DNA from: Malacoraja senta
Taxonomy: Eukaryota
Reading direction: 5' to 3'
NCBI GenBank assembly: GCA_038087875.1
Contig: CM075988.1
Location: 17,238,001-17,302,000 of the forward strand
Length of the DNA stretch: 64,000 nt
A model generated the notes under the pieces. That model made no database searches and had not been told where the DNA came from. It saw nothing but the letters and a program-made list of their open reading frames with translations. Numbering within the stretch: the stretch's first letter is position 1; every line of letters starts with the position of its first letter. Shown piece after piece: positions 6,180-60,521 of this stretch. The position numbers and the translations under genes are program-made.

Positions 6180-6422
6180 TGTGTAGGAAGGAACTGCAGA
6201 TGCTGGTTTAAACCAAAGATAGACACAAAAAGCTGGAGTAACTCAGTGGGACAGGCAGCATTTCTGGAAAGAAGGAATGGGTGACATTTTGGGTCGAGAC
6301 CCTTCTTCAAACTGAAGACAGAAGGGTCCAAAGAAGGGCCTCGACCCAAAACGTCACCCATTCCTTTTCTCCAGAGATGCTGCTTGTCCCGCTGAGTTAC
6401 TCCAGATTTTTATGTCTACCTT
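6180..6422. mobile_element. PLE-terminus-derived inverted-pair element with degenerate hammerhead cores
   Basis: Two inverted ~110-130-bp arms; flanking direct repeats tgggttgtggagtgaa (6164-6179) and tgggtagtggattgaa (6423-6438). Confidence 0.75.
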
Positions 6423-7934
6423 TGGGTAGTGGATTGAAGCTGGGTTTGAAACTACAGATAACACCAAAGTGAATCGAGAATTATGGGGATCAGCAAAAAA
6501 ATGTAGCTGCGAGCCAAAGAATATTCATTCATTTATTCATCATCGTTGAAAACATTAACAACGTAGTGGTGCTGGTTTCCAAAGGGAACGGTGACGGACG
6601 CACGACACATGTGTCCGCCAGTTCCTGCGGACTTCCGCCGCTGGAAGTATAGGATTTTGGTGTGTGTGCTTTATCATCATTCCTTACAATGCTATGTACG
6701 ACAGTGATCGCAACTTCTGCTGAAGTGTGGATGGCCGTTGGCTCGCTAGAAGCTCATCCGCCCTTTGACAGGTCTTGTTTTGGGTCCTTCTGGGGGTCCA
6801 CAGCCCCCTCCTCACCTGGAAAACCAGGTGGGGGAGACGGTTTTGTCACTGACTATCCGACCATGGAGCAGGTACCACGTGATTACATGGTACCCATAGC
6901 GGGGGGAACTCCCCCGACCTGACCTGAATAGCCACATCTTATTGAAATGCAAAGTGTGCTTGAAAGACAGTTTGGACTTTTTCTTGTATCTTGTGTTTCA
7001 ACACAGGCACAATAAGCCGGCAACACAAGACTGGAGAAAAGCACCGATTGTTCTTTCACTATGCTGCTCTGTTCCAGTTAACTCTCTTACTACAACAGTC
7101 AGCTTTAGTTGTTCTCAAGTAAAATTGCCGGGAAGACCTTGAACCTGTGTCGGCCGTGAACTTGTTCTGGTTTTGTAGCATCATTCGCCCTCCCATGCTG
7201 AGACGCTTTTTGCTTCTGTCACACTTCCTGCTGTGTTCAGTGTTTGGACCATTCTTTGTCAGGGAAATGTTCTCACTGCTTTAGCCACCAGGAAAGATTG
7301 GGAATGGAATTCTGTGCTTGAGAGAGCGGTGCTAGAATTCTAGCAAGTGCGGGTAAGCTTGATAAGCTATCATAGTACCATAATCACGCATTTCACAGCA
7401 TCAAACCTTGCATTCTACACCAAGGACATTCATAACGTAGCCACACAGAGAAATATTCTCCAATATCAATGCACAGTACAGCAAATGGGTTGTACAACAG
7501 TTCCACAGACCACGTTTGACAGCCTCACTGTTGAGACCATTAGCACAGACCCAGTGTAATGCTGCAGATCAATTCTATTTCTGAAATATAAATTATTTCT
7601 GTTGCACAACAAAAGCAAGCATATTATTTTTAAATCAAGCCATCAGGCTTGTTCCTTGCTAATGAATCTCTTGAGAGCCTTACCAATTAATAGTGCAAGC
7701 TGCGAGAGAAATTAGACCTTAGTAATTAAACAGCAGGTTATTAAAACCAGTGGACCTCAGCTTGAATAGGAGTTTTGTTCCTTTGGAATATAATGCTGTA
7801 ATTTCATGCAGGGACCAAGTTTGTTCTCCCTTAATGACAAGGATGCCTGCCGCAGGTTCATTTTCTAGGCTGCATGGTTAGATTCGACTTCTGTATTAGA
7901 CTTCCAAAGCACTGAATGTGGAGAATGCAAAAGA

Positions 7935-8235
7935 TCAGCTAGTAGAGCAGTTGTCTCACAGCACCAGAGACCCAGATTCAATCTTGACCTCGGATGCTAT
8001 CTGTGTGGAGTTTACATGTTCTCCCTGTGACCGTGTAGGTTTCCTCCAGGTGCTCCAGGATCCCCCCACATTCCAAATATGCATGGGTTTGTAGATTAAT
8101 TGGCCTCTGTAAATTGCCCCTAGTGAGTAGGGAGTGGATGAGCAAGTGGGATAACATGGAACTAGTGTGAACGGGCGATCAATGTTCAACGTGGACTTGG
8201 TGGGCCAGGAGCCTGTTTCCAATTTGTTTCTTTAA
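7935..8235 (+). mobile_element. HE1-like tRNA-derived V-SINE
   Basis: tRNA-like head (B box ttcaatc), V-domain tgtgtggagttt...ttctccc, HER1-type tail gggcc..gagcctgtttcc. Confidence 0.75.
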
Positions 8236-8976
8236 ATCCTGGCATTCAGCTCACAATTCTGAAATTTGCACTCCCTGACTGTTTAGTCAGGGTTTTTATT
8301 GGTAATTGCACTGGAAAGTTAGACTTGGAAATATGTCACCATTCCTTCATCATCATGGGTTAAGACCCCTCACGTTGACTGCAATGGTTTATAAAGATGG
8401 CTCCCCAACATTTCTCCAGTGCAATTAAAGATGGCATTAGAACTGGCCTTTCCAGTGTTATTATCACAATAATAAATAAAAGGAAAATATGATAACCTTC
8501 ATAAATCACAACACAATTAAAAGATAGTTCAGGCACATCTTAGATAGTGGAAGTGTTCTGGCAGAGGAGATGGGGAAAATTATTTCTGGATGGGGGAGGA
8601 TGGCTGTTTGATCATTTAATTAGCTTGAACCATAGAAAGGAAAGAACTAATAGATTTCTGTAACTTGCCAAACTTGTTGTCTCTTTATTATCTTGTCACA
8701 TTGTTACTTGGACATGCAGCAGAATGCCTTGAATTGACATGGTGTTCAGTGGAATGGGATGTGGGAGGAGCAGAACATTTGAGGTGTAAGAAAGTAGATT
8801 CCTAATAATAACAAAACACAAAGCGCCGGAGGAAGTCAGCGGGTCAGACAGCATCTGCGGATGGATTGGGCAGATGGCATTTTGGGTCAGGATCCTTCAC
8901 GATGCTGTCTGGCTGCAGAGTTCCTCCAGCACTTTGTTTTTTTTTTGTTCAAAGTTCCAGTATCTGCAGTTGTGTG

Positions 8977-9470
8977 TCAAGTCAAGTGAGTTTATTGTCA
9001 TGTGTCCCTGGTAGGACAATGAAATTCTTGCTTTGCTTGAGCACAACAGAACATAGTAGGCATTTACTACAAGGCATTCTATAAATATATACACAATGGT
9101 CAATATACTGATAAAGTGCAAATAACAGTATTGGCTAATAAAGTTCAGTGTTATGTCCAAGCCAGGTTTAATAGCCTGATGGCTGTGGGGAAGTAGCTGT
9201 TCCTGAACCTGGTCGTTGCAGTCTTCAGGCTCCTGTACCTTCTACCTGAAGGTAGTAGGGAGATGAGTGTGTGGCCAGGATGGTGTGGGTCCTTGATGAT
9301 GCTGCCAGCCTTTTTGAGGCAGCGACTGTGGTAGATTCCCTCGATGGAAGGGAGGTCAGAGCCGATGATGGACTGGGCAGTGTTTACTACTTTTTGTAGT
9401 CTTTTCCTCTCCAGGGCACTCAAGTTGCCGAACCAAGCCACGATGCAACCGGTCAGCATGCTCTCTACTG
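8977..9470 (-). mobile_element. Rex-Babar (Rex1-like) LINE 3' fragment
   Basis: ORF 9151-9459: GCIVAWFGN...IIKDPHHPGH..LLPSGRRYRS...RFRNSYFPTAIRLLN; (CTTGA)n tail at 8977-8986. Confidence 0.85.
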
Positions 9471-11465: not shown

Positions 11466-11663
11466 AATAAAAAGGAACCGCAAACGCTGGTGTATACCAA
11501 AGATAGACACAAAATGCTGATGTAACTCAGCAGGTCAGGCAGCATCTCTGGAGAAAATGGATATTTGATGATCGGTACATTGTCCCAAACCGAAACAGCA
11601 CCTATCCATTTTCTCCAGAGATCCTGCCTGGCCCACTGAGTTACTCCAGCATTTTGTAGCTAC
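11466..11663. mobile_element. PLE-terminus-derived inverted-pair element inserted in an old DeuSINE
   Basis: Inverted arms; 16-bp TSD atttgtgagatcttgt (11450-11465) / atttgtgggatcttgt (11664-11679). Confidence 0.75.
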
Positions 11664-12574
11664 ATTTGTGGGATCTTGTTGTGCGGAAAAATAAATGTCC
11701 AGATTTTGTACGTACAACAATAATTATATGTTAAAAATAACTCATTTGTTGTAAAGTGCCCCGGGGAGACTTGAGATGATGAGAGGAGCTGAAAATAAAT
11801 CCAAATTTTAAAAAAACTTGTCAAATATACATGAAGTTATTGCAAATACAATCCGTTTCAGAAGTGGCATAATTATAGATATAGTGTAGACATTAAACAA
11901 AAGCCATTGTTGTTTTAAAGATGATTGGCCACAGGATCATTAAGTTTAATCAGGTGCAGAAATAACAGCTCTAGCATGATGGATAATTCAGCCTTCATGT
12001 TATAGATGGGACCGGACGCAGGCAGAAACATAATGAATTCAGTGTATTGGTAATCATATCATATGCTTCCTTGCTGTATTTTAATGTGGAATGGTTCGGG
12101 TTTGGGTTGGTTAAATGGGGCATTGTTTGTTGGGACTGCCTTATTAGCGTTTGTTTCCATTTTCAGAGCAGCATTAAATCGAGAAGGACTTGGACCTAAG
12201 CAGCATCTTTCATACCCTCGGGTTATCACTTGATGAGCAGTTGTAATGTTGGAGATATGGCAGATAATTTGCATTCAGCAAGATGCCATAGCAACCAGGG
12301 GATACTGACCAGACTATCTGCTTTAGTGACGTTGGACTGCGGGATTGACATCAGGCGTCCTGCATTTCCTCAAAATTGGATCTTTTACATTTATCTGTGA
12401 GTGAAGGAAAGTGCCCCTCAACATCTCGTCCAAAAGATGGCTCTCTCCAATAGTGCGCCCTTCGTAGTGTGAAAATATGTTTAGAAAATTTTCGCCAAAC
12501 CAGACTTGGGTGCTGAGCATTTGTCCGTTGCCTCGGGCCCAGTCCAGAACCCCCAACCCTGATCGTTCTGAATG

Positions 12575-12612
12575 CAGTCTGAAGAAGGGTTCTGACCCGA
12601 AACGTCACCCAT
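12575..12612 (+). ncRNA. Minimal type-I hammerhead ribozyme motif (PLE-associated)
   Basis: cagt-CTGAAGA-a-gggtt ct gaccc-GAAAC-GTC-acc; core intact. Confidence 0.65.
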
Positions 12613-12638
12613 CTTTTTTGTTCAGAGATACTGCCTAA

Positions 12639-12958
12639 TGGCCCTGTTCCACGGTACGAGTTCATTTCAAGAGCTCTCCCGAGTTTGCCCTGATTCGAAC
12701 TCGGAGATTGACGGTAATGGCCGCTCGTCGGTACTCGGGGCTCTCGTGGACATTTTTCAACACGTTGAAAAATCTTCATGAGTCTTCCCGAGCTTACCTG
12801 CCGTTAGCGAGTCTTCCTGAGTACCTGCCATTAGCGCTAAGAGCCGTCCCCGAGCACCGACGTACCCGCTACGTTCATTCTCCGTGCTTACCACGAGTTT
12901 TATTTTTTTTTAACTCGGGAGAGCTCTTGGAATGAACTCGTACCGTGGGACAGGGCCA
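12639..12958. mobile_element. PIF/Harbinger-type MITE nested in a hammerhead-bearing element
   Basis: ~47-bp TIRs (tggccctgttccacggtacgagttcatt... / ...aatgaactcgtaccgtgggacagggcca); TAA TSD at 12636-12638 and 12959-12961. Confidence 0.88.
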
Positions 12959-15199
12959 TAACCCACAGAGTTACTCCAGCGCTTTGTGCCTATCTTCGGC
13001 ATAAATCAGTATCTGCAGTTCCATCCTACACAGCCAGATTGGTAGTTGAGGTAATATTGGGATCATGCAATGCTTGCCTTGTCAGAGAGACCACAACTAT
13101 TCACAATCGAGGCTATCCAACATGTAGAAATACAGTAGAACACAAAGTGCTGGAGTAACTCAGCAAGTCAGACAGCATCTGTGGAGGGAATGGATAGACA
13201 ACATTTCGGGTTGGGGCCCTAAAGACTAAAGAAGGGTCCCACCCCTAAATGTGACCTAACCATTCCCTCCACAGATGCTGCCTGACCAGCTGAGTTACTT
13301 CAGCACTTAGTGTCTTGCTCCAAGATTCCATCATTGGCAGTTCCTTGTGTCTCCACATGGAACTATGGGGCAATTTTCACCTATCTCAGAAGGTGGAGCA
13401 TCAATGTTGCTCTCTTCCCAATATCATAGTGTAAAACTACAGTGGAGACGACTTTAGTAAGGTGCACCCAATTGCAGCAGGAGGGACCGAGTTGTGGTCC
13501 TGCAAGTCTTTCTACCCCTCCTGCTATCACCTTTCTTTGATCATGCCCGCCAATGAAAGCACCCTTGACATTGACAAAGGCCATGAGAAGAAGACCCACT
13601 CTCATTAGTTTCCTAACAAGCTGAATGGTTTAAACGATCTTGCCAGTATCTCAGCCACAGAGAAAGCTGGTCATTTAGAAAACAGTAAGTGGAAAATGGG
13701 GCTCTTAACGGATTGTCTGAAAGAAATAACGATCATCTGAGGAACAGTAGAATCTGCAGTGAGAACAAAATACTCATTATACTTAGTTAATTGCATGAAT
13801 TAATGAGCTTGACCTGCGAATGCACTTTGGAATCAGTCGTTAGAACTTAAAGGAGATGATTGGAAAAAATGTGATCAGCGAGAAGAGATTATGTAAATAT
13901 GATAAATTCCTTGCATTCTTTCTTCATATTTTCTGGGAATTGATCTGATATGTAAAATATTCTGGGAATTGATCGGAATACTGCTTTGCTATTGCTGAGG
14001 AAAGAATGCTTCAAAGGATAGATTCCAAACTATTTGATTGTCTGCTTTGGAAATAATTTATTTAAATGTCACACTCTTAGTTCTGCACCAGCCCCTCCAC
14101 ACATTATCCCTCCCTTCCTCCCTCATAAAGAATAGCCTATATTTTCGTTAGGCTAATGGGTATGCAGATGTCTTGCTTCCATTTTGGTTCTGTGAGTTCT
14201 CGGTTAAGACCAAGGTAGGAACCACAGACTCTTCCGTGGATGGGGAATATGATCATGGGTGATCTACCCCAGACAATAACTCCTCCTCTGTGCCAGATCT
14301 TCACTGAAATCAATCTCCTCATGATTGCAAAATGTGTCTACCTCTCGCTGGGAAACAGCCAGAATATCCCTTCACAGTTTTGACATTGCTCTTAATTGTG
14401 CCAATTAAAAGATCCATGTCAGGAACTTTTGGGGAATGGGGAAAATAACTTAAAGGAGTGGGAGAAAAAGACCCTCAAATTAAATTTGGGGTCCCCTATT
14501 TCAAGCACATTCGTTTGAGAGTCGAGAGCAAGGAGACTTGAAACTGATCATCAAGCCATTCTGGATTGGATTTGGCAAAACACAAATTTCGAAATTTCCC
14601 TCCCCAACTGGCGACAGTGGGTTGAGTTGAAATTTTAAAGATGGAGATTGAAGTTTTTATTCAGTAAGATTATTAAAGACTAAGGAGTCATGGAGTCATG
14701 CAGTTTGGAATCAAGCCCTTCGGCCCAACTTGCCCATGCCGATCAACCATTCAGGCAATAAAACTAATTTGATGTGTAACTTGGTCAGGGTGTTACTGAA
14801 TGGGGGAAGGGTTTGTGGGGCTGAATTATTTGCTCCTCTTGTTAAGGAAAACATCGGATTTAAAGGAGATTAAATGATTTGACAAATTAAAAATTAAATT
14901 ATGCTATTTGGATAATAATTCAAAGATGGCGATAGCATGAAACTTTATTGCCACTTTTTGAGTGAAGATCTTTCGGGGGGGTACTTTGAAAAGAAAGTTA
15001 ATAGTATATCATTTACACTAATGAATGCAGCATATAAATTCAATGCAATAAGATGAAAAATAATTTTGGGAAATAATTGCGCTTTTGATAGTTTCCCTTA
15101 TTTTCCATCCGTCGGCATACTTTCAGAGTTTGAACTCATGGATTGACTTTGACCATGATATCAAAAACATAAAAAAATTAGGAGCTGTTGTCTCTTCTC

Positions 15200-17730: not shown

Positions 17731-17734
17731 AGAC

Positions 17735-18350
17735 ATTCAATAATGACGTGCTGATGCGGAGGCTAGTGGGCTTGAAAGTTGAGGACCAAGAGAACTATAT
17801 CTGCCTGATCTTTCGAGAGGTGGTGCGAGGGCTGACGTGAGGGAAATGGAGGAAATGCATGTAAGTTTTCCATCTCCTATGGCAGCGGGCAACTCGTCTT
17901 TCCCCGAAGAAGGAGAATAATTCATAAGATCCCGAGTGGAAAGCCTCATCTTGAGAATAGTAGTTTTGGAGATGGAGAAAATTAGGGAAAGGAATGACGT
18001 CCATACAGGAAACAGTAGATGAGATCTGGGAGAGGACACTGACATTGATATTTTTCTCCTTCCATTGAATTTGGAGGATTTTACAGATATGGTGTCGGTG
18101 GTATTTTTCCAGTACCTACTGTAGGTAGGTGGTCCAGATCTCAATGTGTAGGAGGGCAGAAATTATCGTGGCCTGGAAGACCATGAGTTTCATGCGAAGC
18201 TTCGGGTCTTCACCATGGGAGCTTTATTGATGAGGTCAGTGTGGGCAGGTTGGTAGAGTACCTTTGCCTTGCAGTGGTTTGGGTAACATCCATTTTCTTG
18301 CCTGCTTAAGTGAAAGACTCCATGATGGATTGGAACTTGGCCTTCAAGCA
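17735..18350 (-). mobile_element. Penelope-like element RT relic
   Basis: VIPFPNFLHLQNYYSQDEAFHSGSYELFSFF resembles the PLE RT thumb (IPFSQFLRLRRICS.DE.F). Confidence 0.6.
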
Positions 18351-21176: not shown

Positions 21177-22349
21177 TTACTCAATAGCTTCCTAATTTCC
21201 ATTTTCATAGCTTGCAAACATTCTTCAAAGCCAGATCATCACTCACTTTTGCACAACACGCACAATTTTCTATCGAGGAAGTTGTCTGTGATTAGATGCA
21301 GCTTCCTTTTGCGAGTACTATCTTTGATAAGTTTTTTAATACAAGCTCTTCACACCAGACCTCATCTTCAAAGAAGCTCGACAGGGAAATTCCCTCGTGG
21401 GAATTTTGGGCCTGGGCATGCAGTACATTTCATGCTTTGAAACGGAAACATGGGCAGGGAAAGGTTAAAAAGGAAGAGTGTGTGAAAGCAACTGAGTGAA
21501 GCGTATGGAAAGTCTCTGGTTGTCATGGGGCCCGGGTCCCCAGTGCAGATCAGTATTATTCCGTATGATGTGAGTCTTGCACACACCACTTTGCTTATGT
21601 GATCAAAGTCTCGGGGGGGGGGGGGGAAGGAAGATCCTCAGCTCCAAATAAATCTTGACTGGTGCACATCAGTCAGCGCAGTCTAATTAAGAAAGTGCTC
21701 TTTATTAATACTTCTGAGACCTGAGACGGCGGGGAAAAACATCCATGCTTCCGCGCTGCACAAACCCTAGTTGGTTCCTGGGAATAAAAATACTTGCAAT
21801 TATGCATGATATGTATCAAACTTTGGGCATTTCTTGAAGTGTGGTCCCCAATGGGAGGTAGGAAACAGGGCGGCTAACGTGACAAGGTCTCGCAAGCAGC
21901 GAATGGTGGTGGGAAGATGGGATTTGCACAGGCCAAGAGGGTCACTCAACAGGATGCTACCCAAGGTTGACAGAAAATGCTGGAGTAACTCAGCGGGTGA
22001 GGCAGCATCTCTGGAGAGAAGGAACGGGCGAGACCCTTTGGATCCTACCCAATATCTTTCTGGGCATATTTACTGGTTCTTTTGTGGAGTATTTAAACAA
22101 GATTGGCAGAAAAGGTTTGATAAGAAAACTAAGCACAGATTCCGAAAAGAGGAAGCCTGAGCTGGCTACAAAAGGTGGAAAAGTAGCGAGAGAGCATTCT
22201 CAAGTTAGAGGGGAAACTCATATTATGACGAGGTGTATTCCTGGAAAGTGCTTAGTTAAAATTACATTTCAAAAGGAATTAGATATGCAAAAATGGAAAT
22301 ACACCCATTCATGTTTAATTTTGATGGGTTGATAATGTAATTTTGCAAG

Positions 22350-22842
22350 AATGATCACAGGAATGGTTAGGTTAAGCTATGATGAGCGTTTGTCGGCACT
22401 GGGCCTGTACTCGCTAGAGTTTAGAAAGATGAGGGGGGACCTCATTGAAACATACAGAATAGTGAAAGGCTTGGATAGAGTGGATGTGGAGAGAAAGTTT
22501 CCACTAGTGGGAGAGTCTAGGATTAGAGGTTACAGCATCAGAATTAAAGGACTAGAGATCATAGCCCTAGAATTAAAGGACGTTTTTTTAGGAAGGAGAT
22601 GAGAAATTTCTTTAGTCAGAGGGTGGTGAATCTTTGTCACAGAAGGCAGTGGAGGCCAATTCACTGGATGTTTTCAAGAGAGAATTAGATATAGCTCTTA
22701 GGGCTAAGGGAATCAAGGGATGTGGGGAAAAAGCCAGAACAGGACACTGATTTTGGATGATCAGCCATGTTCATATTGAATGGCAGTACTGGTCCGAAGG
22801 ACTGAATGGCCTACTCCTGCACCTATTTTCTACGTTTCTATG
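22350..22842 (+). mobile_element. CR1 3' fragment
   Basis: LSYDERLSALGLYSLEFRKMRGDLIETY, plus 3' UTR and tail. Confidence 0.85.
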
Positions 22843-23814
22843 TCACCCATTCCTTCTCTCCAGAGATGCTGCCGGTCCTGCTGAGTTACTCCAGCATTTT
22901 GTGTCTACCTTCGATTTAAACCAGCATCTGCAGTTCTTTCCTACACAGATTCTAGATTCGTACAGGTGCTGAGGTTATGGGGAGAAGGCACGATAATGGG
23001 GTTAGGAGGGAGAGATAGATCAGCCATGATTGAATGGCGGAGTAGACTTGATGGGGCGAATGGCCTAATTCTACTCCCATCACTTATATCCTTATGATAA
23101 TGATACTAAGTAAAGTTATACATGCAAATAAAGGTGAATTATAAACTAAGCTGAAAAACATTTCATAAATAAACCATTAATTAAAGTAACACCTACATGT
23201 AACTTCTTTCTGAGATTTATTGACAAGGCAGGACTAAACGATGGCTTGTGGGGGTAGGAGACAAATGAAGCTCTTTGCTGATTGCCTCATGTCAAGCATA
23301 AACAAGTCTGGTGCCTACTTGTAATGTTAAAATTATCCTATGGATTTATTTTATTGCAACAAAAGTGAAAAGGTTACAGGACTTTGATGTCATTGATTTT
23401 TGTTTTATGGGACAAAGTTTTAATGTTAAGAGGTATTATTGGCTCAGTTGCAAGAAGCAAAGGGTAACCGCTTGTAGGCACTTATGCAATTGGAAGGCTG
23501 TTACAGCAGAGTTCCACAAGGCTGAGTATTTAGTCTCCAGCTATTTGTGATATATTTAGACATAAGATGTAGGAGTTATGATGAAGATGTTTGCAGATGA
23601 TATAAAAGTTGACTGCGTTTGGTTGACAGTGAGAGGAAAGATGTAGACTGCAGGAGAATACTGATAGATTGGACAGTTGGATTAAGAAGTAGTAAACAAA
23701 ATCTCCATTTAGAAAAGTGTGTGGTCACGCGTTAGGGGAAATGCAACAAGGCAAGGGAATATGCAATAGATGGGCAGGGTCTAAGATGTGTGGAAGAACA
23801 GAAGAACCGAGAAG

Positions 23815-24350: not shown

Positions 24351-26524
24351 GCCAATGTTTCTGGTCACCGTATTGCAGTTCAATATCGCTGACTGGATAG
24401 CGCGCAACAAAAGTTTTCACTGCACCTTGGTACACGTGACAACAAACTAAACTGTAACTGTAGGAAAGGTGAGATTGCCCTGGAGAAGGGCAAAGAACAT
24501 TTGCAAGCATGTTGCCAGCATTTTGGCAAGGTGGAACGAATGGGATAAGCCGGTGTCATGTTGTTTGTGGGGAGATTTAATTGAAGTGTATAATATTATA
24601 AGGCAACTCGACAGAGTAAATAGTTCCAATGTAATGCCCTTTCCAGAGGATAAATATTTGGCACATTTGGAAGAAGGATTAAGGGGAGATGAGAAAAATT
24701 CTATCCACCTCGGGGACTGGAACTCAAAACGGTGCTTGGGGCAGAATTCTTCACCACGTTAAAAAGTGCTTGCATGTGTACTTGAACAACCATGACCTGC
24801 AGAGCGACAGAATTATGGTCAGAAGATGGGAGTAAGCAGTTTTGGTTGTCAAAAACTCGATAGAATGACAGGCCTGTAACATGAATTTTCTAATGGTCCA
24901 CAGTTACAAGATTATTGCCTCGAAATACATCCCAGGTCGATAGTTGGAACGTGTTATATAGTGGCAGCAAGGCATTCTGCTTCACTTCTGTAATTTGATT
25001 CCAGTGAAGTCAATGATTCTGAATTTCAGAAGCAGAATGAAATGTACAACTGCCAGTAGATAGCACAACTTCCTGTGTATATATAGTACTAGGCAATTCC
25101 ATTTCAGTACTGAGGGTGGAAGATAAATATTGACCAGAAACTGAATAATCACCCTTGCTTTTCAATAAAGTGTTGTGGGATCTTATACCTGTGTCTAAGA
25201 GTGCAAACAGGGCTTGGTTTAATTGCACATCCAATAACACTCTCTGACAATATTACACACTTTCATTTTATTTGTCAGAATCCCGGTATTATAACGTTGA
25301 CCTGTGAAGCAACAGTTTTGTGAGGTTTAATCACTGCCTCAAAGTTTTGAAATCAGAAGCTGCAGCCACATAAACGAAGACATATTTATCAGAATAGTGT
25401 GTGGCTGGGAGCCACTTAACGCAAGTGGCCCAGAAACTGAATACTCTATTTATACAACAGTGATTGTTCATCAATGTATGGGTATAATTGTTAGGAAAAA
25501 ATTGAGGTGGTGTCTGGAGCTGACCTCGGGAGTATGCGGATCTGTGGAGAGCAAATCAGCGGGCAGAAAGAACCGAGTGCACTGCCTGAGAGAGTCAGGG
25601 TAAGTTTTTATGCTGACACTTCTTGAGGTTAGAGAGTGACCTATTGATCCACAATTGGAGAGAGGGTTGCAATTCGAATGAGGCAAATGTTCCCAGTGGC
25701 GTATCAGGGAAAGAGGAAGCCATAACCCTTAGGGAGAGAGGAAGGAAAAACAAATCAATTAACAGCCTGAGCACACCTTATAAATAGCACTGTACCAACA
25801 ATGAGGCCGATAGTGTGAAGTCACTATGAATTAACTACATTTGTGCCAACGCATTGATTCTAAAAGATTGCATAAATTTTGATGATCGAGCCAAGGTAAA
25901 GTACATTGTGATTTACTCAGTCTGTCAATATTTAATGAATCAGCTGTTAAAGACCGGGCGATCAGATTAACCTTCAGAGTGCTGACACACACAAGATGGG
26001 CTGAACAGCCCCCTTTGCTGTAAATGGTGATTGTGAAAGTTAAAGTGGGTGCTGTGCTTTCTCAACAGCTTCATGCTGTGCCTGAGTGCGTCAGTGAGTG
26101 TCACACACTTGGGAGGACAATCGAGGTTACACAAAAACGGTAGGAAGGAACTGCAGATGCTGGTTTATGCCGAAGATAGACACAAAATGCTGGAGTAACT
26201 CAGCATCACTGGAGAAAAGAAATAGGTGACATTTTGGGTCAAAACCCTTCTTGGGGTTTCCTTTTCTTCAGAGATGCTGCCTGACCAGCTGAGTTACTCC
26301 AGCATTTTTTATCTATCTGACACAAATTGGGGCTGTATTCCCAGGAATTTGGAAATGAAGGGTTAATTAGTTTGAAATCTTAAGGAGAACTCATGATTTT
26401 GACAGTAACTTCTGTCATCAGTTGCAGAATCTAGGACCGGGGGCACAGACTAAAATGTAGAGGCAGCCTTCTCTGAATTGTTGTATACTCCAATAGTTTG
26501 CAGTTATTTTCCTTAAATGGATCC

Positions 26525-40437: not shown

Positions 40438-40527
40438 GTCTGAAGAAGGGTCTCGACCCGAAACGTCCCCCATTCCTTCTCTCCAGAGATGTTGCCTGAG
40501 TTACTCCAGCATTTTGTGTCTATCTTT
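40438..40527 (+). mobile_element. Minimal 90-bp hammerhead-headed insert
   Basis: Begins gt-CTGAAGA(40440)-a-gggtc tc gaccc-GAAAC-GTC(40467); direct repeat gatccagaaa at 40424-40433 and 40528-40537. Confidence 0.75.
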
Positions 40528-43483: not shown

Positions 43484-43497
43484 AGAGACAGAGGGAC

Positions 43498-44069: not shown

Positions 44070-44600
44070 ATTTAAAGGAATTGCAGGCGCTGGTTTACAG
44101 AAAGAAAGACAAAGTGCTGAAGTAACTCAGCAGGTCAAGCAGCAACTCTGGAGAACATGTATGGGTGATGTTTTGTGTCGGGATCTTTCTTCAGACTGAT
44201 TGTAATTGGGGGGGGGGGGAGCTGAAAGAGAGTTTGGGCCGGGACAAAGCCAGGCAAGTGATAGGTGGAGAAACAAAGAACTGCAGATGCTACTTTATAC
44301 CAAAGATAGACACAAATTATTGGGGTAACTCAGCGGGTCAGGAGATGCTGCCTGACCCTCTGATATACTCCGGCACTTTGTGTCTATCTTAAGTGATAGG
44401 TGGACACAGGTGAAGGGGTGGGGGAGGCTGTTTAGCAGACGGGTAGATAGAGGCTAGAGGTGAAAAAGAGACAAAAGGGTGTAAGATAAAGAGTGAAGTG
44501 AAAAATGAAGCCAGAGGGAGGAATATAGTTGGAAGAGAACACTGGGAAGGAGATAGGCGGACAGGATGGTGGGAGAATTGGGTGCGCATCTGGGAATATT
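44070..44600 (-). mobile_element. Longer PLE 3' terminal fragment with a nested short family member (44270-44390)
   Basis: Nested insert flanked by perfect 14-bp aagtgataggtgga (44256-44269 and 44391-44404). Confidence 0.7.
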
Positions 44601-45639
44601 TTATTGATTGCTGCATGAATATGCAGGTAAAGAGCTGTTGAGGTGCCAGCTCAGCACATACCTGCCTTGCATCGTAAAAAAAATCTAATTACAAGTTGCT
44701 ACCCGGGAACAATACCTGAGAGTTTGATTGAGCTTGTCAGCAAACCTCTCTGAGCACCATCAATATGCATAATGCTGGTGCAGGGAATCAATCATGCTTT
44801 ATAAATGGAAGTACACTATCCCAGCTGTGTCATCACTAGATTTATTGAGTCGCTGTCTGCTACGGCAATGAAGGGTAAATTGCAGTGAATGAAGCATTTT
44901 AATTTGTGACAAAACGTTCCTCACCTCACCTTGGATAACCCTGCGGCAACTTGAGCTGTCGGTTGTCGGGTTCAGACTTCACTCCCGACAAAAAGCAAAC
45001 TGCTGAATAGCAAAGGTGTAGAGGGGAACGGGCCGAATGCGGGCGAATGGGACGAGCTTAGGTGGGGCATCATGGACGAATTGGGCTGAAGGGCCTGTGT
45101 CCGTGCTGTGTGACCCTGCGACTCGCAGACTCTCTGCTGAAGAAACTCAGCGGGTCAGGCAGCATCTGTGGAGGGAAATGGGCAGACGACGTTTCAAGTC
45201 AAGACCTTTCTTCAGACTGAAACCCCAACCCGAAACTTCTATCCACTTGCTCCATACATGTTGCCTGAACTGCTGAGTTCCTCCAGCATTTTGTGTTTTC
45301 TTTCTCTCAGCACATTATCTGGGGGGGGGGGGGGGTGTCTTCAGTGAAGGAGGTGCCATCTTGCAGATGAACCTGTGCCTTCCAAAAAGGCTTGATGAGC
45401 CAGTTAACATGAGCCAGTTTGTGATGGCCAATAACTGTGGCCCAGTCAGTGATACCTAACATGTGTAAGTAAGTAAGTTTATTGGCCAAGTATTCACATA
45501 CAAGGAATTTGCCTTGGTGCTCCGCCCACAAGTAACAACATGACATACAGTGACAGTTACGAATGACTCCGAAAACACTAAGCATTAATAATAATAAAAC
45601 ATTAATGATACGGAACACGGAATAAATGAACACGGAACA

Positions 45640-48185: not shown

Positions 48186-50087
48186 TTGCACAACTGTGCC
48201 CATGCATGCTACCATGTGTGTGGAGGGCACGCAATACAAGGTTTCTAACTGTAAGTCGCTACACGTGATAATAATAAACTAATAGTTTAACTTGGTCAAT
48301 GCCAATGGTCAACATATACATTTCCTCTGTTTCTGAAACCAAAACTGACCATTTCCAAATCTTACCTGATTTTAGCAAAGCTCAAACCAAGACTGATCTA
48401 TGGGTGAACCAGGCCACAATAATAGTCATACAAGTTGGATGTACTTCGGTTACGAAGCAAGGGAAAAAACCTGATAGCCTCTGTGACCATCACTGGCTTC
48501 TAACGGGATGTTCTAGTCTAGTCGAGTGCTCTAGTTGGGTCGTCAGAACCTGGCAACTCTCGAATATAGCTGTTTGTATGCATTGTGTCTTAACCAGGCT
48601 TGTACTTATGCATGGCAATAATCATACTGATCTGTATTCAACAAAGAATCTCACTGTCCCTTGGTACAAGTGATAATAAAGGAAACATTGAACCATATGT
48701 TCTCAGTCGATCAACATCCAACAAAGTCCATGTGCAGAATAACAGTCAAATACACAGGGAACTCAAAGTAAGTTGTTGTGTCCTCTTAATTCAAGAGTTC
48801 CTCATGGACTGCCCAGATATCATTAGTCTCGAAACACAATCCTTGAAAAGAAATGTAACTGTTTTAAGGCAACAATTATTGTTCCCACAACTGATATTAC
48901 AGGTTCTACAGTTCCCTGTTAAACAATGGCATGATTTTACCAAGCCCAGTGATTTTTTTAAATCCGTATTTCTGTAATCCTCGGTAGCCCTTCAATCCAC
49001 TAGTTATCTGTGCACCCAAATGTACCCCACCGCCAAATGTAACGGGTAACAAGCCCTGGAAATTCTCACCCTGAGCATCTTTGCTTTTTTCCTCCTTGAG
49101 GATGCTTCCTAAAACCCAATAACCCAAACTTCTGGTCGTCTTGTCTAACATCTGCCTTTGCATCTCAGCATCAATTTGCTTTTTGCTTGGGAATGCTCCA
49201 GTGGCATGTTTTTGGATTTTTGCTGTCTGAAAGGTGATGTATGAATGGAAGCGGATGTTGCAGACATTTTAACCTGGGTTTTCAGAAAAGGTGGGTAGGG
49301 AATGAGGAGGCAGAAATGTCATGCAGTTTGGGGAGGAAAAAGAGGATATGAAATGGGTGTTGATTTGCAGCATTAATGACGGAGTTAAGAGTTTATTTTT
49401 GCGTGGGGCTGATGACAAAGGAAAATCTGAAAAAGGGCAGTACATGAAGAGAAGGCCCGATTTTTAATATCATTTTACACAATTTCTCTCGATACTGCTG
49501 CTTAAACTGCCAAATGTTTCCATCATTTTCTGTTTTCACTTTAACTAAAGCAAGTCAGTATGGGGGTACGAGGATTGAAGGGGAGGAATGTGAAGGGAAA
49601 TTCCCCTTTGCAGCATATCATACGATATGGATATCTTTCACCAGCTCCAGACTTCCTGCGCTGATTCATAATAAGTGTCTTAGTTCAGTGCAGCCACTGC
49701 TGTAACATTGGAATCCCTGCAGACATCAGCCATGCAGCAATGACCCTGCAAATAGCAATCTAGTACCATTCCCTGAAGGATGAAGATTTGTTCCGGGCAT
49801 TTGGGTATCATTGTTTATTCCACAAAATTATTTATCTTCCTCACTCCTCATCTGTCCATTTACAAGCAGTTTATTTTACAATAGTTGTAATCATTTTTAA
49901 TTTAACATTTATCTATTTGCAGTTTCCAATCTAGCTGTGTAAAAAGGGAAAGGAAATATCACCCTGTCTCGTAACCTTAATTAATTTGCTGAGGGGTTGA
50001 GTTTGCTGTGTGCTGCACAGAATTCAGATGAAGGACATGATTCTGTTTTACATATTTAATGAAAGCCAAGAAACCAATGCAATGACG

Positions 50088-50332
50088 ATGGACACAAAAT
50101 GCTGGAGTAACTCAGCGGAACAGGCAGTATCTCTCTCGAGAGAGAGAGAGAAGGAATGGGTGGCTTTTTGGGTCGAGACCCTTCTTCAGACTGGCTCAGT
50201 CTGAGGAAGGGTCTCGACCTGAAACGTCACTCATTCCTTCTCTCCAAAAATGCTGTCTGTCCCGCTGAGTTACGCCAGCATTTTGTGTCTATCTTCTGCT
50301 TAAACCAGCATCTGCAGTTCCTTCCCACACAT
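50088..50332. mobile_element. PLE-terminus-derived inverted pair with back-to-back hammerhead cores
   Basis: Minus-strand degenerate core at 50160-50192; plus-strand core CTGAGGA(50201)...GAAACGTC(50228) with agt/act stem I. Confidence 0.75.
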
Positions 50333-51222: not shown

Positions 51223-51340
51223 ACACGTTGAGAGGAGACTACATTGTGAGCACCACTGCTTCACCTGGTCCCTGGATGGTGGGAAGGGAAGAGGTGAAAG
51301 GACAGGTGTTGCATCTTCTACGCTTGAAGGGGAAAATAGG
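51222..51340 (-). mobile_element. Penelope-like element RT-endonuclease linker relic
   Basis: Reverse strand reads FPFKRRRCNTCPFTSSLPTIQGP, like the Cys-rich linker preceding the GIY-YIG domain. Confidence 0.6.
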
Positions 51341-52427
51341 TTGGAACACGTTAGCTTGTCTGTCCTGCAGGTAGCTGCTCAGACACGTCACTGCCCACGT
51401 TGCACCTTCTAAGTGCTACGTTAATCCTTTCACACTTCTGCGTTCACTTCCTGACTTCGAACCTCATTGTGTCTGTCAGCCATTTTCAGAGGAGAACTCA
51501 GAGACCAGTAGGGGGTTAGAATCAACCAGAAGATGAATAAAAGGGGAAATCTGCATTCTTAAAGGACTGAGGTGACTGATAAACTCAAGGGAAAGGTCGA
51601 TCAAGAAGGAGGGAGGGAATGGAAGTTATGTTAAGAAATTGAAATGAATGCTAGAGGGAGACACAAAGTGCTGGGGCAACTCAGTGGGTCAGGCAGCATC
51701 TCTGGAAAAAAAAGGACAGGCAATGTTTCGGGTCGGGACCCATCTTCAGACGCCGAAGAGGTGTCCCGACCCCAAACGTCACCCGTCCTTTTTCTCCAGA
51801 GAAGCTGCCTGACCCGCTGAGTTACTCCAGCACTTTGTGTCTATCTTTAGTATATACCAGCATCTGAAGTTCCATTCTACACATAGTTAAACACTAGGAT
51901 GGACCAGTTTATAAGAACAGCCTGTGATTTTGTAGTAAATATTATTTGTTCTCTGTCACCTTATCCTGGTTACTATTGGCTGCCAACTACTTTCAAGGTG
52001 TACACATCCTGAGCCTTCTACTTCCAAAGTGGTTCATTAGTAATCCTAACTATCTATGTTGTCATCTGAAATAAATTCAATTACAGTTTAGTAATCACTA
52101 CCAAGCATGAATTATCCGTGTTACTTCCAGACAAGTTAATTGTGATGACTAGAGGAAACAGCTGTTATGAAAAATGCTTCCAAATTTTTGATCTCATCAT
52201 TGAAGTTATTTTGTGGAGCCCTGATTAGTTTTTGACTTAATCAACAAGAAAATGTGCTCTTGTAAAAACAACCTGAGGCTTGGCTGCTCTGGGGGTTGGT
52301 GTTCTGTTGAACTGTACTGGCACTGGGGATGATCTCAGATGATTTCCAAAAGAGATATAAGAAGGAAGCTATATTTATGTGGTGGCTGTTGCTATCTCAA
52401 GATGCTTCTGGTGTTTCATTCAATGTT

Positions 52428-56490: not shown

Positions 56491-56504
56491 AGGGAATAAA
56501 TGAG

Positions 56505-57706: not shown

Positions 57707-57772
57707 ATTAATAATAATAATAATAATAATAGATTTTATTTATATAGCGCTTTTCAGGACTCAAAGTCGCTT
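57707..57772 (-). repeat. (TAA)n microsatellite forming an L2 tail fragment
   Basis: Same adjacent sequence as 60522-60578. Confidence 0.8.
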
Positions 57773-58647: not shown

Positions 58648-59046
58648 GGTGCGCAGTGGTAGAAACATAGAAACATAGAAAATAGGTACAGGAGTAGGCC
58701 ATTCGGCCTTTCGAGCCTGCACCGCCATTCAATATGATCATGGCTGATCATCCAACTCAGTATCCTGTACCTGCCTTCTCTCCATACCCCCGATCCCTTT
58801 AGCCACAAGGAGTGGCTGCCTTACAGAGCCAGAGACCCGGGTTTGATCCTGACTACAGGTGCTGTATGTGCGGAGTTTGTACGTTCTCCCTGTGACCGCA
58901 TGCTCCAGTTGCCCCTCACACTCCAAAGACATGCAGGATTGTAGGCTAATTGGCTTTGGTAACATTGTAAATTGTCCCTAGTGTGTGTAGGATGGTGCTA
59001 GTATGTGGGGATCGCCTGTTTCCGCACTGTGTCTCTATAAACTAAA
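58648..59046 (+). mobile_element. HE1-like SINE interrupted by an antisense CR1 3' fragment (~58662-58811)
   Basis: SINE head gcgcagtggtag|...|agtggctgccttacag split by a CR1 tail (aaacatag)n. Confidence 0.8.
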
Positions 59047-59476
59047 CGGGTCAGGCTGCATTGTGGAGGGAAACGGACAGATGATGCTTCGTGCTATGGA
59101 GTAGAGGGAAGATTGCTGGTAAAAAGAAATGAGGGAAAGGCAGATTACAAACTAGAGGACCTACAAATCTGAAGAAGGGTCTCGATCCGAAACACCACCC
59201 ATTCCTTCTCTCCAGAGATGCGGCCTGTCCCGCTGAGTTACTCCAGCTTCGGTTTAAACCAGCATCTGTAGTTCCTTCCTAGACAAATGCTAAGGTCTTG
59301 TTATGCAACAGATGTAGACTAGTAAGGGATTCATCAGAATTATTATTCCTGGCATTGTTAGAATCAATATTTATCAATTTTATTAACCAACATTGCATAC
59401 TGAAAGTTACATTGTTGTTACAGAGGGGTAGCCTGATTCAAATTCTGAGTTTGCCATCCAGATAATATTAGAAATA

Positions 59477-59573
59477 GTCTGAAGAAGGGTCTCGACCTGA
59501 ACCGTCACCTATTTCTTTTCTCCAGAGATCTGCCTGGCCCGCTGAGTTGATCCACCTTTTTGTGTCTCTCTTC
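59477..59573 (+). mobile_element. Minimal hammerhead-headed insert
   Basis: Starts gtctgaagaagggtctcgacctgaaccgtc; TSD aatattagaaata (59464-59476) / aatattagagata (59574-59586). Confidence 0.72.
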
Positions 59574-60521
59574 AATATTAGAGATATATCAACTTAAAAA
59601 GAATTGATATTTAGCTTTGTTTTAAAGATGGTTATTCCGTTAGGTCTTGACCGCCATTTTGCTTAAATGTTATTAGCTTCAAGTGTTTTTTTTTCAAATA
59701 AATAGCTTCAGGCGAGGAATCAACTTTGTTCAGCCCCCAGGACAATATGCAGCCAAGGCATCAAAGAGCGAATTAAACCAGTTAATAATTGAGCACTGGG
59801 AAGTTTGTTCACTGTGAGAAAATTAATTAAAAGAAATTATCAGGTTAGTTCAGAAATAGATGTAGATAATGTGAACTGGGATTCAAAGTTGTGTTTGTAT
59901 TCAATAAATTGTATTTAGTTCGCATTTTTAATGACTTGCATTCATTCAGAATATCTAACGTGCTGGAACCCTTCACAGGCGAATTATTAAATAAAATCCG
60001 GTCTCAACCCAAAACTTCATCTATCCGTGTTCTCTAGAGATGCTGCCTGAGCTGCTGAGTTACTCCTGCACTTTGTGCCCTTTTGTCTTTGTTCTACCAT
60101 TTATCTGACCTGATGACCCAAAGCTTGACTTTTAGTGCTCATTTAAACCACCAAAGCTTGGTGGTTTAAATGAGCACTAAATTGAGGGCGAGAGAGAGAG
60201 GGATTTGGGGGATTTCTGTAGTTTATGGCTTTGCTAGCTGAAAACACATTGAGTTTGCTTTGACTGCATTTAGATATGGTATATACCTGATCTGTTTGGA
60301 TAGCATGCAAAGCTGAGCTTTTCACTGTACCTCAGTACATGTGACAATAACAAACCTAAACCGAACCTGGAGGACAACAGATATGTCTGAGAATATGAAA
60401 CAATGAAGGAGGTTGCAGAGTGAAGGGAAAGAACAAAGTTGAAGTGAAAAAGAGATCTGGATTTTAAAAACTGAGGCTTTTCTTGACCAGGAGTTGATAT
60501 AGGACAAAAACCACAAAGGTG

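What the first reader, a model, noticed from the sequence alone, without database searches (positions are those of the whole stretch)
6180..60090. Dispersed family of short hammerhead-ribozyme-bearing non-coding retroelements (retrozyme-like, PLE-derived)
Seen: about 20 copies of a ~90-140-bp unit, gtCTGAAGAagggtctcgacccGAAACGTCacccattccttctctccagagatgctgcctgacccgctgagttactccagc...tgtgtctatc. Cores look intact or near-intact at 12579-12606(+), 40440-40467(+), 50201-50228(+), ~45185-45218(-) and ~51722-51752(-). Degenerate copies lie near 6290, 6335, 13225, 26230, 28720, 29815, 33560, 40830, 44180, 59170, 59480 and 60000. The unit matches the hammerhead consensus CUGANGA / stem II / GAAA / NUH with a tiny helix III and an extra A after A9. 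Established: Penelope-like elements carry minimal hammerheads that can cleave as dimers, and retrozymes are non-autonomous hammerhead retroelements. Inference: this is an abundant chondrichthyan SINE-like family mobilised by PLEs. PLE coding relics are present at 17735-18350 and 51222-51340.
Basis: partly seen in the sequence, partly recalled or inferred. Interest (0 to 1): 0.8.

Follow-up and report, generated by a model that had tools for sequence, protein, structure and literature searches.

The report
Penelope retroelement stumps with hammerhead motif
These are about 40 short, mostly decayed end-pieces of Penelope-like jumping genes in a cartilaginous-fish-like genome, often inserted as mirror-image pairs and carrying a minimal hammerhead ribozyme motif that is predicted, not shown, to cut RNA; the kind of element is known, and here it is very abundant.

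Summary
The repeat is real. The window holds 40 units ("arms") of about 60-130 nt, 6% of its bases. The core 31-mer occurs 13,276 times in the 1.94-Gb genome.

The arm is the terminal module of Penelope-like elements (PLEs). In 59 of 59 sampled PLE copies of two lineages, a sense arm follows the RT/GIY-YIG ORF and its 3'UTR.

The arm carries the published metazoan PLE "minimal hammerhead": CUGANGA, an extra A, a G-C-closed stem II, GAAA, a palindromic CG, then UH. Only 4 window arms keep it intact; CpG decay broke the rest. No Rfam hammerhead model matches. Cleavage is untested.

Adjacent arms are mostly head-to-head inverted pairs (40 of 47). They have variable centres, independent 3' ends with or without a ~30-nt tail, and 12-15-bp target-site duplications. 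This is the canonical PLE insertion signature, most likely from priming on both cut DNA strands.

The elements are not tandem, so they are not retrozyme-like, and nothing shows an independent SINE.

This scan reported the same thing earlier in another shark genome. Verdict: a new member of a known kind, of modest interest.

The parts
6183..6426 (.). Head-to-head inverted arm pair. The left arm has the tail (model end 130) and the right arm does not (101). Flanks match 10/12 (GGGTTGTGGAGT / GGGTAGTGGATT).
8807..8973 (.). Head-to-head pair. The right arm is 5'-truncated to model position 51.
11469..11668 (.). Head-to-head pair with both arms 5'-truncated (26 and 13). Flanks match 11/12 (TTTGTGAGATCT / TTTGTGGGATCT).
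12577..13029 (+). One arm split by an unrelated insertion of about 320 bp: model 1-61 at 12577-12637 and model 62-130 at 12961-13029. Intact minimal-hammerhead motif at 12579-12606.
13133..13347 (.). Head-to-head pair of a divergent lineage (D), decayed.
17897..18022 (-). Relic of PLE coding sequence (RT region): 52% identity over 42 aa to a natural PLE ORF of this genome, E 3e-6.
21952..22945 (.). Two arms, (-) model 21-108 and (+) model 26-131, separated by about 800 bp. The spacer includes what looks like a CR1-type LINE 3' end (recalled resemblance, not tested).
26141..26321 (.). Head-to-head pair. The right arm is 5'-truncated to position 36.
28644..28830 (.). Head-to-head pair: left arm without tail, right arm 5'-truncated to 49 and with tail. 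Directly abutting target-site duplication ACAGTGTTACAA / ACAGTGTTACGA.
28943..29035 (+). Solo arm, model 12-107.
29682..29919 (.). Head-to-head pair.
33426..33663 (.). Head-to-head pair. Flanks match 11/12 (AGAAGCTGATGT / AGAAGGTGATGT).
40438..40544 (+). Solo arm with the best-preserved minimal-hammerhead motif (40440-40467, 0 changes from the family majority).
40738..41026 (.). Cluster of three arms: a young lineage-B arm (40738-40844, -) abutting a head-to-head pair (40844-41026).
44074..44394 (.). Solo arm (44074-44196, -) and a strongly 5'-truncated head-to-head pair (44275-44394) with an exact 12-bp flank match, AGTGATAGGTGG.
45135..45313 (.). Head-to-head pair. The left arm keeps an intact motif at 45188-45215(-), with stem II AGGU...ACUU.
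50082..50328 (.). Nearly full head-to-head pair (both arms start at model 1), with an intact motif at 50201-50228(+). As RNA it folds into one hairpin of -166 kcal/mol.
51257..51334 (-). Relic of PLE coding sequence (linker/endonuclease region): 65% over 26 aa, E 3e-5.
51648..51880 (.). Head-to-head pair. The left arm's motif is near-intact (two changes).
59168..59282 (+). Solo arm with tail.
59477..59578 (+). Solo arm that begins exactly at model position 1 and ends without tail. It is flanked by a 13-bp target-site duplication, AATATTAGA[A/G]ATA.
60000..60082 (+). Solo arm, model 12-94, decayed.
5066..5165 (-). Solo arm, model 17-120, decayed.

Best explanation
The ~100-130-nt unit is the terminal module of Penelope-like retrotransposons (it follows the RT/GIY-YIG ORF in 59 of 59 sampled element copies), and the solo units and mirror-image pairs in the window are likely stump-sized insertions made when the element's enzyme primes reverse transcription on one or both cut strands of the target DNA.

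Shown here:
- The module has three parts. Positions 3-30 are a minimal hammerhead motif. Positions 50-90 form a block conserved across all four lineages and contain an ATG. The 3' end is either at about position 100 or at about position 127-130, which corresponds to an optional ~30-nt 'tail'.
- Pairs are head-to-head, with their 3' ends pointing outward. Their centres vary and their ends are independent.
- Pairs are flanked by 12-15-bp target-site duplications, and the two arms belong to the same lineage.
- Most copies have lost the motif through CpG decay.

Inferred from published PLE biochemistry (PMC11167929):
- The PLE protein binds the RNA just downstream of the hammerhead.
- It starts reverse transcription internally at one of two sites.
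- It cuts and extends both DNA strands, and the two cDNAs are then joined head to head.

Inferred from the copies:
- Many templates likely begin at arm position 1, where the element's 3'UTR ends in an initiator-like TCAGTCT.
- The hammerhead is predicted to act, if at all, only in the coding element's transcript, weakly and probably protein-assisted or as a dimer through the palindromic ACGU. It is not predicted to act in the stumps.
- The copies themselves are most likely inert.
For: Link to PLEs:
- A near-full PLE lies 20 kb left of the window. It has RT ORFs and a GIY-YIG match (Pfam E 2e-4, 22 bits against a 22.6 cut-off).
- Homologues of its RT carry RVT_1, PF26215 and GIY-YIG.
- In 30 of 30 lineage-B PLE loci, a sense arm starts 106-136 nt after the ORF end at model position 1-2.
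- In 29 of 29 loci of a second lineage, found through its 3'UTR, the UTR is followed directly by the abundant lineage-A arm, and PLE coding sequence lies upstream.

Tail:
- Arm ends in the 30 lineage-B PLE loci fall at 86-109 (19 loci) or 124-127 (11 loci), with none between.
- Of the 162 arms in the 264-kb sample, 70 end at 86-111 and 61 at 124-131.
- A 30-40-bp optional tail between two RT start sites is a published PLE hallmark (PMC11167929 main text; PMC3846280 passages).

One insertion event per pair:
- Adjacent arms are -+ in 40 cases, against +- 2, -- 4 and ++ 1.
- Centres and ends vary independently.
- 14 of 40 pairs have >=10/12 matching flanks, against 1.3% of shuffled pairings.
- 5 of 9 young composite inserts (inverted plus direct 5'-truncated PLE) have 8-15-bp duplications by script.
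- Arms within a pair differ by a median of 0.19, against 0.28 between pairs.
- Both arms belong to the same lineage in 13 of 14 pairs with duplications.

Motif:
- The core, the extra A (145 of 156 arms), G10.1-C11.1 (118 of 158) and the palindromic CG all match the four features listed in PMC4209133.
- The descriptor finds 12 hits in 264 kb. Twenty shuffles gave 0 hits in 19 runs and 1 hit in one.
- Across the four lineages, every non-CpG difference within positions 3-30 lies in loop II, at a U-A to U-G wobble, or at H17. Positions 31-49 differ freely.
Against: - 26 of 40 pairs and 50 of 54 solo arms show no clear duplication. Decay or wrongly set ends may explain this, but that is not shown.
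- The sharp 5' boundary, with 74 of 162 arms starting at model 1-4, is not what random 5' truncation gives. It needs the extra assumption of a short template or a strong stop.
- Raw poly(A) RNA reads showed no place where many molecules begin or end.
- Arm starts are not enriched at the predicted cleavage site: 11 of 162 start at positions 26-32. Cleaved RNA is therefore not visibly the template.
- No Rfam hammerhead model matches, even at E<=10.
- The minimum-energy fold of a solo arm lacks stem II, with z = -1.2.
- Helix I is at best 2 bp + internal loop + 2 bp (by inspection), and it exists only where the PLE 3'UTR lies upstream.
- Stem II shows no real compensatory change.
- The PLE next to the window has a lineage-A inverted arm at its 5' side and no detectable duplication.
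Confidence: 0.8

Rival explanations
1. This is an independent non-autonomous family, SINE-like or retrozyme-like. Short master genes consisting only of the hammerhead module would be transcribed on their own, and their RNA would be mobilised in trans by PLE enzymes.
For: - 74 of 162 arms start at model position 1-4.
- Some solo arms that start at position 1-3 have their own target-site duplications, for example window 59477-59578.
- Only 7 of 42 full-start solo arms have lineage A or B PLE 3'UTR sequence upstream.
- Short arms vastly outnumber coding relics in the 264-kb sample.
- A 2026 preprint argues that animal retrozymes are non-autonomous PLE derivatives (10.64898/2026.07.22.740005; abstract and Results read).
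Against: - Each of the two arm lineages tested is the exact end of its own coding PLE lineage.
- The arms are not in direct tandem: 5 of 47 adjacent pairs are direct. The unit therefore cannot be excised by two ribozymes.
- No tRNA or other polymerase III-type RNA family was found in the window.
- Copies that start at position 1 would lack the upstream sequence in which the PLE promoter is expected, so they could not sustain themselves.
- Pairs fold into a hairpin that buries the motif.
Confidence: 0.12
2. The ~250-bp palindromes are foldback MITEs, moved by a DNA transposase, and the hammerhead resemblance is incidental.
For: Full pairs look like long terminal inverted repeats with constant outer ends (TGTAGGAAGGAAC...GTTCCTTCCTACA), and they fold into a near-perfect hairpin.
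Against: - The two outer ends of a pair are independent, each with or without the 30-nt tail.
- Centres are truncated at different points in each copy.
- Flank duplications are >=12 bp, not short and fixed in length.
- Single arms are common: 75 of 162.
- The arm continues upstream into a retroelement 3'UTR and RT/GIY-YIG ORF in 59 of 59 loci.
Confidence: 0.03
3. The hammerhead-like motif of these lineages is not a working ribozyme. On this view, positions 1-30 are conserved as part of the RNA structure or promoter region used by the PLE, not for self-cleavage.
For: - No Rfam hammerhead hit.
- Helix I is very weak and there is no helix III hairpin (by inspection).
- The predicted fold of a solo arm pairs the core with downstream CCUUCUCUCC.
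- Copies do not start preferentially at the cleavage site.
- No RNA ends were seen there.
- Published min-HHRs cleave poorly in vitro (PMC4209133).
- In an Anolis PLE, catalytic mutants did not affect insertion, and no reads ended at the cut site (PMC11167929).
Against: - All eleven core nucleotides, the extra A, G10.1-C11.1 and the palindromic CG are kept in four lineages whose following 20 nt diverge.
- The Anolis PLE motif cleaves when its protein is added, with the expected C3/G8 rescue (PMC11167929).
Confidence: 0.3

Closest known systems
Minimal hammerheads (min-HHR) in the pLTRs of metazoan Penelope-like elements (Cervera & De la Pena 2014, PMC4209133; dimer cleavage: Lunse, Weinberg & Breaker, RNA Biol, seen only as a reference-list entry, content recalled)
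   Same: - Same conserved core.
[quoted passage not shown]
- G10.1-C11.1 pair.
- No helix III hairpin, only a palindromic 15.2/16.2 (CG).
- Weak helix I.
- Located in the PLE terminal repeat.
- Thousands of scattered single copies.
- Pairs on opposite strands 100-700 bp apart are mentioned for Schistosoma.
   Different: - Stem II is 4-5 bp here, against 7-8 bp in the Schistosoma families.
- Helix I is only 2 bp + loop + 2 bp.
- The host is a cartilaginous fish, which that paper does not list.
- No cleavage data exist for these sequences.
Canonical insertion structure of endonuclease-bearing PLEs: direct and inverted pLTRs, optional 31-bp tail, head-to-head inverted repeats, variable TSDs (Arkhipova, Yushenova & Rodriguez 2013, PMC3846280, passages read)
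   Same: - An inverted terminal copy lies next to a 5'-truncated body.
- An optional ~30-nt extension sits at the outer end of either repeat.
- Head-to-head is the dominant orientation.
- TSDs of 8-15 bp are present in some inserts and absent in others.
- An ATG of the ORF lies inside the repeat.
   Different: - Most inserts here are reduced to the terminal ~100-130 nt on one or both sides.
- They make up about 6% of the sampled DNA.
Poseidon PLE of Anolis carolinensis studied in vitro (Frangieh et al. 2024, PMC11167929, main text read)
   Same: - The module has the same geometry: hammerhead, then a protein-binding region, then internal RT start sites about 70-100 nt past the cut site.
- The two start sites explain the tail.
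- Both DNA strands are cut and extended.
- There is no sign that cleaved RNA is the template.
   Different: - In Anolis the ORF starts at stem II. Here the only ATG of the arm is 23 nt past the predicted cut site.
- No biochemistry exists for the elements described here.
Non-LTR retrozymes of animals (Cervera & De la Pena 2020, PMC7229834, search listing only; Li, Clavereau & Pollet 2026 preprint 10.64898/2026.07.22.740005, abstract and Results read)
   Same: Both are short non-coding hammerhead-bearing repeats related to PLE pLTRs.
   Different: - Retrozymes are direct tandem repeats that yield circular RNA.
- The units here are solo or inverted, so they are not retrozymes by structure.

Membership tests
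Metazoan PLE minimal hammerhead (min-HHR) | Conserved core C3-U-G-A-N-G-A9 ... G12-A-A14 ... U16.1-H17 | tested here: met
   Intact in 4 window arms and in 12 of 58 arms that cover the motif in the 264-kb sample. It is the majority state at every core position. Losses are mainly CpG transitions.
Metazoan PLE minimal hammerhead (min-HHR) | One unpaired nucleotide between A9 and G10.1 | tested here: met
   A at model position 10 in 145 of 156 arms.
Metazoan PLE minimal hammerhead (min-HHR) | G10.1-C11.1 closes stem II | tested here: met
   G-C in 118 of 158 arms and G-U in 20.
Metazoan PLE minimal hammerhead (min-HHR) | No helix III hairpin; positions 15.2/16.2 are palindromic | tested here: met
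   GAAA-CG-UC in the majority and in all strict hits.
Metazoan PLE minimal hammerhead (min-HHR) | Families within a genome show covariation in the helices | tested here: not met
   Stem II shows 0-5 two-sided changes per pair among 158-169 arms. The lineages differ only by U-A versus U-G and in the loop. The lineages are close, so the test has little power.
Metazoan PLE minimal hammerhead (min-HHR) | Helix I of about 4-5 bp | tested here: inconclusive
   By inspection, helix I is 2 bp, a 2x2 internal loop, then 2 bp. It exists only where the PLE 3'UTR lies upstream. Solo arms keep 2 nt of the 5' strand.
Metazoan PLE minimal hammerhead (min-HHR) | Self-cleavage, as a dimer or protein-assisted | not testable with these tools
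   Needs a bench assay. Raw RNA reads showed no ends at the site, which proves nothing for poly(A) libraries.
Canonical hammerhead ribozymes (Rfam Hammerhead_1, _3, _II, HH9, HH10) | Match to the family covariance model | tested here: not met
   0 matches at gathering score in 64 kb. No hammerhead family matches at E<=10 on the best copy, 40400-40560.
Endonuclease-bearing Penelope-like element (insertion products) | The source element encodes an RT plus a C-terminal GIY-YIG endonuclease | tested here: met
   ORFs are listed. GIY-YIG scores E 2e-4 (22 bits, cut-off 22.6). RT homologues carry PF00078, PF26215 and PF01541. 150 scored copies are 92-100% identical to the query at protein level, most of them (133 of 150) without stops inside the match.
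Endonuclease-bearing Penelope-like element (insertion products) | The unit is the element's own terminal repeat | tested here: met
   30 of 30 loci and 29 of 29 loci.
Endonuclease-bearing Penelope-like element (insertion products) | Optional 30-40-bp tail at the 3' end | tested here: met
   3' ends are bimodal at about 100 and about 127-130.
Endonuclease-bearing Penelope-like element (insertion products) | Inverted head-to-head repeats flanked by one target-site duplication | tested here: met
   40 of 47 adjacent pairs are head-to-head. Duplications are documented.
Retrozyme (non-LTR type) | Direct tandem repeats, each with a sense hammerhead, so that a unit can be cut out and circularised | tested here: not met
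   Direct adjacency occurs in 5 of 47 cases. The pair RNA is a hairpin.
Foldback MITE (DNA transposon) | Both terminal inverted repeats complete, with a short fixed-length TSD | tested here: not met
   Ends are independent and centres vary. Duplications are >=12 bp.
tRNA-derived or CR1-tailed SINE | tRNA-like or other polymerase III head; LINE-derived tail | tested here: not met
   No tRNA or other RNA family reaches gathering score in the window. The 3' end is the PLE tail. ARAGORN was not run.

The most novel reading that the evidence does not exclude
Every PLE copy in this genome carries, at the junction of its 3'UTR and terminal module, an initiator-like start (TCAGTCT). This start fires short RNAs that begin exactly at the hammerhead's 5' edge. 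Two such RNAs, held together by the palindromic ACGU of the helix-III-less hammerhead, are loaded onto a dimeric RT/endonuclease and copied onto both cut DNA strands. On this reading the ribozyme motif serves mainly as an RNA dimerisation device, and it explains both the mirror-image stumps and their rise to about 6% of the genome.
Probability: 0.12. Interest if true: 0.6.

Novelty: new member of a known kind. Interest (0 to 1): 0.3.

Why it matters
The finding annotates one of the commonest repeats of this genome, about 6% of the sampled 264 kb, as Penelope-like debris. It is not a new ribozyme-bearing SINE.

It also offers a large natural data set of PLE insertion products: hundreds of thousands of stumps, if the sample is representative (an extrapolation). 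The data set has three useful properties:
- The 5' boundary is sharp.
- The 3' ends fall into two classes.
- The copies form mirror-image pairs flanked by target-site duplications.

These match, in vivo, what was seen in vitro for one lizard PLE: both DNA strands are primed and reverse transcription starts internally.

The finding does not open a new question, and ribozyme activity remains untested.

Tried and rejected
- Rfam gave no hit. A gathering-score scan of the window found 0 families. A permissive scan of the best copy found no hammerhead family.
The relics were confirmed only by tblastn with a natural PLE ORF.
- The foldback-MITE reading was considered. It was rejected on the independent ends, variable centres, long duplications and the link to a coding retroelement.
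- The retrozyme reading was rejected on orientation.
- A stem II covariation test found nothing usable.
- A duplication search around the near-full PLE beside the window found none.
- Thermodynamic folding gives no support for the hammerhead fold in a solo arm.
- RNA evidence: no RNA holder is listed on record for the stretch. One raw poly(A) RNA-seq run of a coded organism was laid, together with three contig sets. The arm is covered about 2,000-4,700-fold in both directions, against about 10-60-fold for the adjacent 3'UTR. However, 94% of reads run on into unlike sequence, and no place where molecules begin or end was reported. This shows read-through of scattered copies, not a defined RNA.
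I used a DNA query instead.
- The Lunse et al. paper is not held.
- Two literature searches found no paper describing these elements in sharks or skates. A third search looked only for the Lunse et al. dimer paper and found it only as reference-list entries. Supplements of the 2026 preprint, which sampled one chondrichthyan, are closed and may hold related families.

Full report
**Observation**

- The 28-nt core occurs 8 times in the window at up to 3 mismatches. The 25-nt downstream motif occurs 20 times. Neither occurs in any of 100 shuffles.
- The 31-nt core, written as in the finding, occurs 13,276 times in the 1.94-Gb genome, with a reversed-pattern control of 0.
- I took the window plus 100 kb on each side and ran an iterated nhmmer search, starting from the copy at 50199-50330. 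It finds 162 units ("arms") in 264 kb (5.8% of the bases), of which 40 lie in the window (6.0%).

The downstream motifs come in (-,+) couples 110-180 bp apart. Printing them shows head-to-head inverted pairs with the hammerhead-like cores at the centre and the 3' ends pointing outward.
- Of 47 cases where two arms lie within 60 bp, 40 are -+, 2 are +-, 4 are -- and 1 is ++. A further 75 arms are solo. Thirteen pairs lie in the window.
- The pairs are not fixed palindromes. Each arm is truncated at its own point at the centre (model start anywhere from 1 to 59). Each ends independently at about position 100 or about position 127-130.
- Over all 162 arms, 70 end at 86-111, 61 at 124-131, and only 17 in between. 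At the 5' side, 74 start at position 1-4.

**What the arm is**

Upstream of some solo arms lies shared sequence. In one case, 20 kb left of the window, this is the C-terminus of a long ORF.
- That locus is a near-full Penelope-like element (PLE), with RT-region ORFs and a GIY-YIG match (E 2e-4, 22 bits, just under Pfam's 22.6 cut-off).
- Homologues of its RT carry RVT_1, PF26215 and GIY-YIG. The closest come from skates, rays and sharks.
- Its C-terminal ORF matches at least 150 scored places in the genome at 92-100% protein identity, most of them (133 of 150) without stops inside the match.
- In 30 of 30 fetched loci, a sense arm begins 106-136 nt after the ORF end, at model position 1-2. It ends at 86-109 in 19 loci and at 124-127 in 11.
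- I found a second, older PLE lineage through the 3'UTR of a decayed copy. In 29 of 29 loci (the query's own place left out), that 3'UTR is followed directly by the abundant arm type of the window, with PLE coding sequence upstream.
- Clustering gives four arm lineages: A (59 arms), B (18), C (15) and D (8), at 8-13% mean divergence from their majority. By nearest lineage, the 39 window arms found at E<=1e-5 are 25 A, 8 D, 5 C and 1 B.

**One event per pair**

Five of nine young composite inserts (an inverted 5'-truncated PLE joined to a direct one) are flanked by duplications of 8-15 bp by script.
- Among the 40 short pairs, 14 have flanks that match at >=10 of 12 positions, against 1.3% of about 780 shuffled pairings. 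Eleven reach >=11, a level never seen in the control. In the window these pairs include 11469-11668, 28644-28830, 33426-33663 and 44275-44394.
- Four of 54 solo arms also have such flanks, against 0.7% in the control. One is window 59477-59578, which begins exactly at position 1.
- The two arms of a pair are more alike (median distance 0.19, n=33) than arms of different pairs (0.28, n=1023). They belong to the same lineage in 13 of 14 pairs with duplications.

**Comparison with what is known**

These are the published hallmarks of endonuclease-bearing PLEs.
- Direct and inverted pseudo-LTRs, an optional 31-bp tail, head-to-head repeats as the commonest form, and TSDs that are present or absent are all described in PMC3846280 (passages read).
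- In vitro, an Anolis PLE protein cuts and extends both DNA strands. It starts reverse transcription internally at two sites whose spacing is the tail. It needs the RNA just downstream of the hammerhead (PMC11167929, main text read).
- My reading follows from this. The arm is that recognition and initiation module. Solo arms are one-sided stumps and pairs are two-sided stumps. The biochemical steps are inferred by analogy and are not shown here.

**The sharp 5' boundary**

The boundary at position 1-4 is not explained by random truncation.
- The 3'UTR of the coding elements ends in TCAGTCT, which resembles an initiator (my inspection).
- PLE pLTRs are reported to hold promoters (PMC6765202 and PMC3846280, passages read).
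- I therefore infer that many templates are short RNAs starting there. This is untested.
- In one locus, a 611-codon open frame starts at the arm's ATG at position 53. This fits published reports that the pLTR contains the start of the ORF.

**The hammerhead**

- A strict descriptor gives 12 hits in 264 kb. Twenty shuffles gave 0 hits in 19 runs and 1 hit in one.
- In the window the motif is intact at 12579-12606(+), 40440-40467(+), 50201-50228(+) and 45188-45215(-).
- Only 12 of 58 arms that cover the motif keep it. The losses are mostly CpG transitions, as expected for neutral decay.
- Between the four lineages, changes inside positions 3-30 are confined to loop II, one wobble and H17, while positions 31-49 vary. 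This is mild evidence of constraint in the active elements.

Several results count against calling it a proven ribozyme.
- No Rfam model matches.
- Stem II shows no compensatory change.
- Helix I is very weak.
- A solo arm does not fold into the motif by minimum energy.
- A pair folds into a hairpin of -166 kcal/mol that buries the core.
- Copy starts are not enriched at the cut site: 11 of 162 start at positions 26-32.
- Raw RNA reads show deep, bidirectional read-through coverage of arms but no defined ends.

**Verdict**

The PLE origin and the min-HHR identity are supported. The retrozyme-like and independent-SINE readings are not.

The kind is known (PMC4209133, PMC3846280, PMC11167929, and the 2026 preprint 10.64898/2026.07.22.740005). 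Earlier agents of this scan described the same palindromic PLE stumps in another shark genome. I reached the reading before that look-up, and I took from it the pointer to PMC3846280.

It is a new member of a known kind, notable mainly for its abundance.

Noticed in passing
window 12638-12960: An unrelated repeat of about 320 bp is inserted inside an arm. The arm's model positions 1-61 and 62-130 lie on either side of it. The insert contains its own inverted segments (…GAGCTCTCCCGAGTTTGCCCTGATTCGAACTCGGAGA…).
   Followed up: no
window 22040-22840: Between two arms lies about 800 bp. Its translation (…FFSQRVVNLCHRRQWRPIHWMF…-like) resembles the C-terminus and 3' UTR of a CR1-type LINE (recalled resemblance, not tested). 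Its 3' end abuts the arm one or two bases before the predicted hammerhead cut site.
   Followed up: no
L014:6062-8930 (about 61-64 kb left of the window): Three lineage-B head-to-head pairs lie about 1.3 kb apart. Their inverted symmetry extends beyond the arm into flanking AGACAGAGAGACTGTTGGCGG. This looks like a tandem array of a longer palindromic unit.
   Followed up: no
L061 (G000:C353:14000-20000), minus strand: This PLE copy has the longest open frame seen (820 codons). It has no detectable arm after the ORF. Instead there is about 1 kb of proline-rich low-complexity tandem repeat that is open in all three frames.
   Followed up: no
L063:3168-5268 (oriented minus strand of G000:C12:22076200-22082200): A direct arm (model 1-130) is fused to a 5'-shortened PLE body, so that a 611-codon frame starts at the arm's own ATG (model position 53). 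A second arm follows the ORF, giving direct pseudo-LTRs.
   Followed up: partly
L018:9706-9819 and 7019-9705: The near-full lineage-B PLE beside the window carries, head-to-head at its 5' end, an arm of lineage A rather than its own lineage. No target-site duplication was found around the composite.
   Followed up: partly
window 45299-45313: A run of about 15 G directly follows the right arm of the pair at 45135-45313.
   Followed up: no
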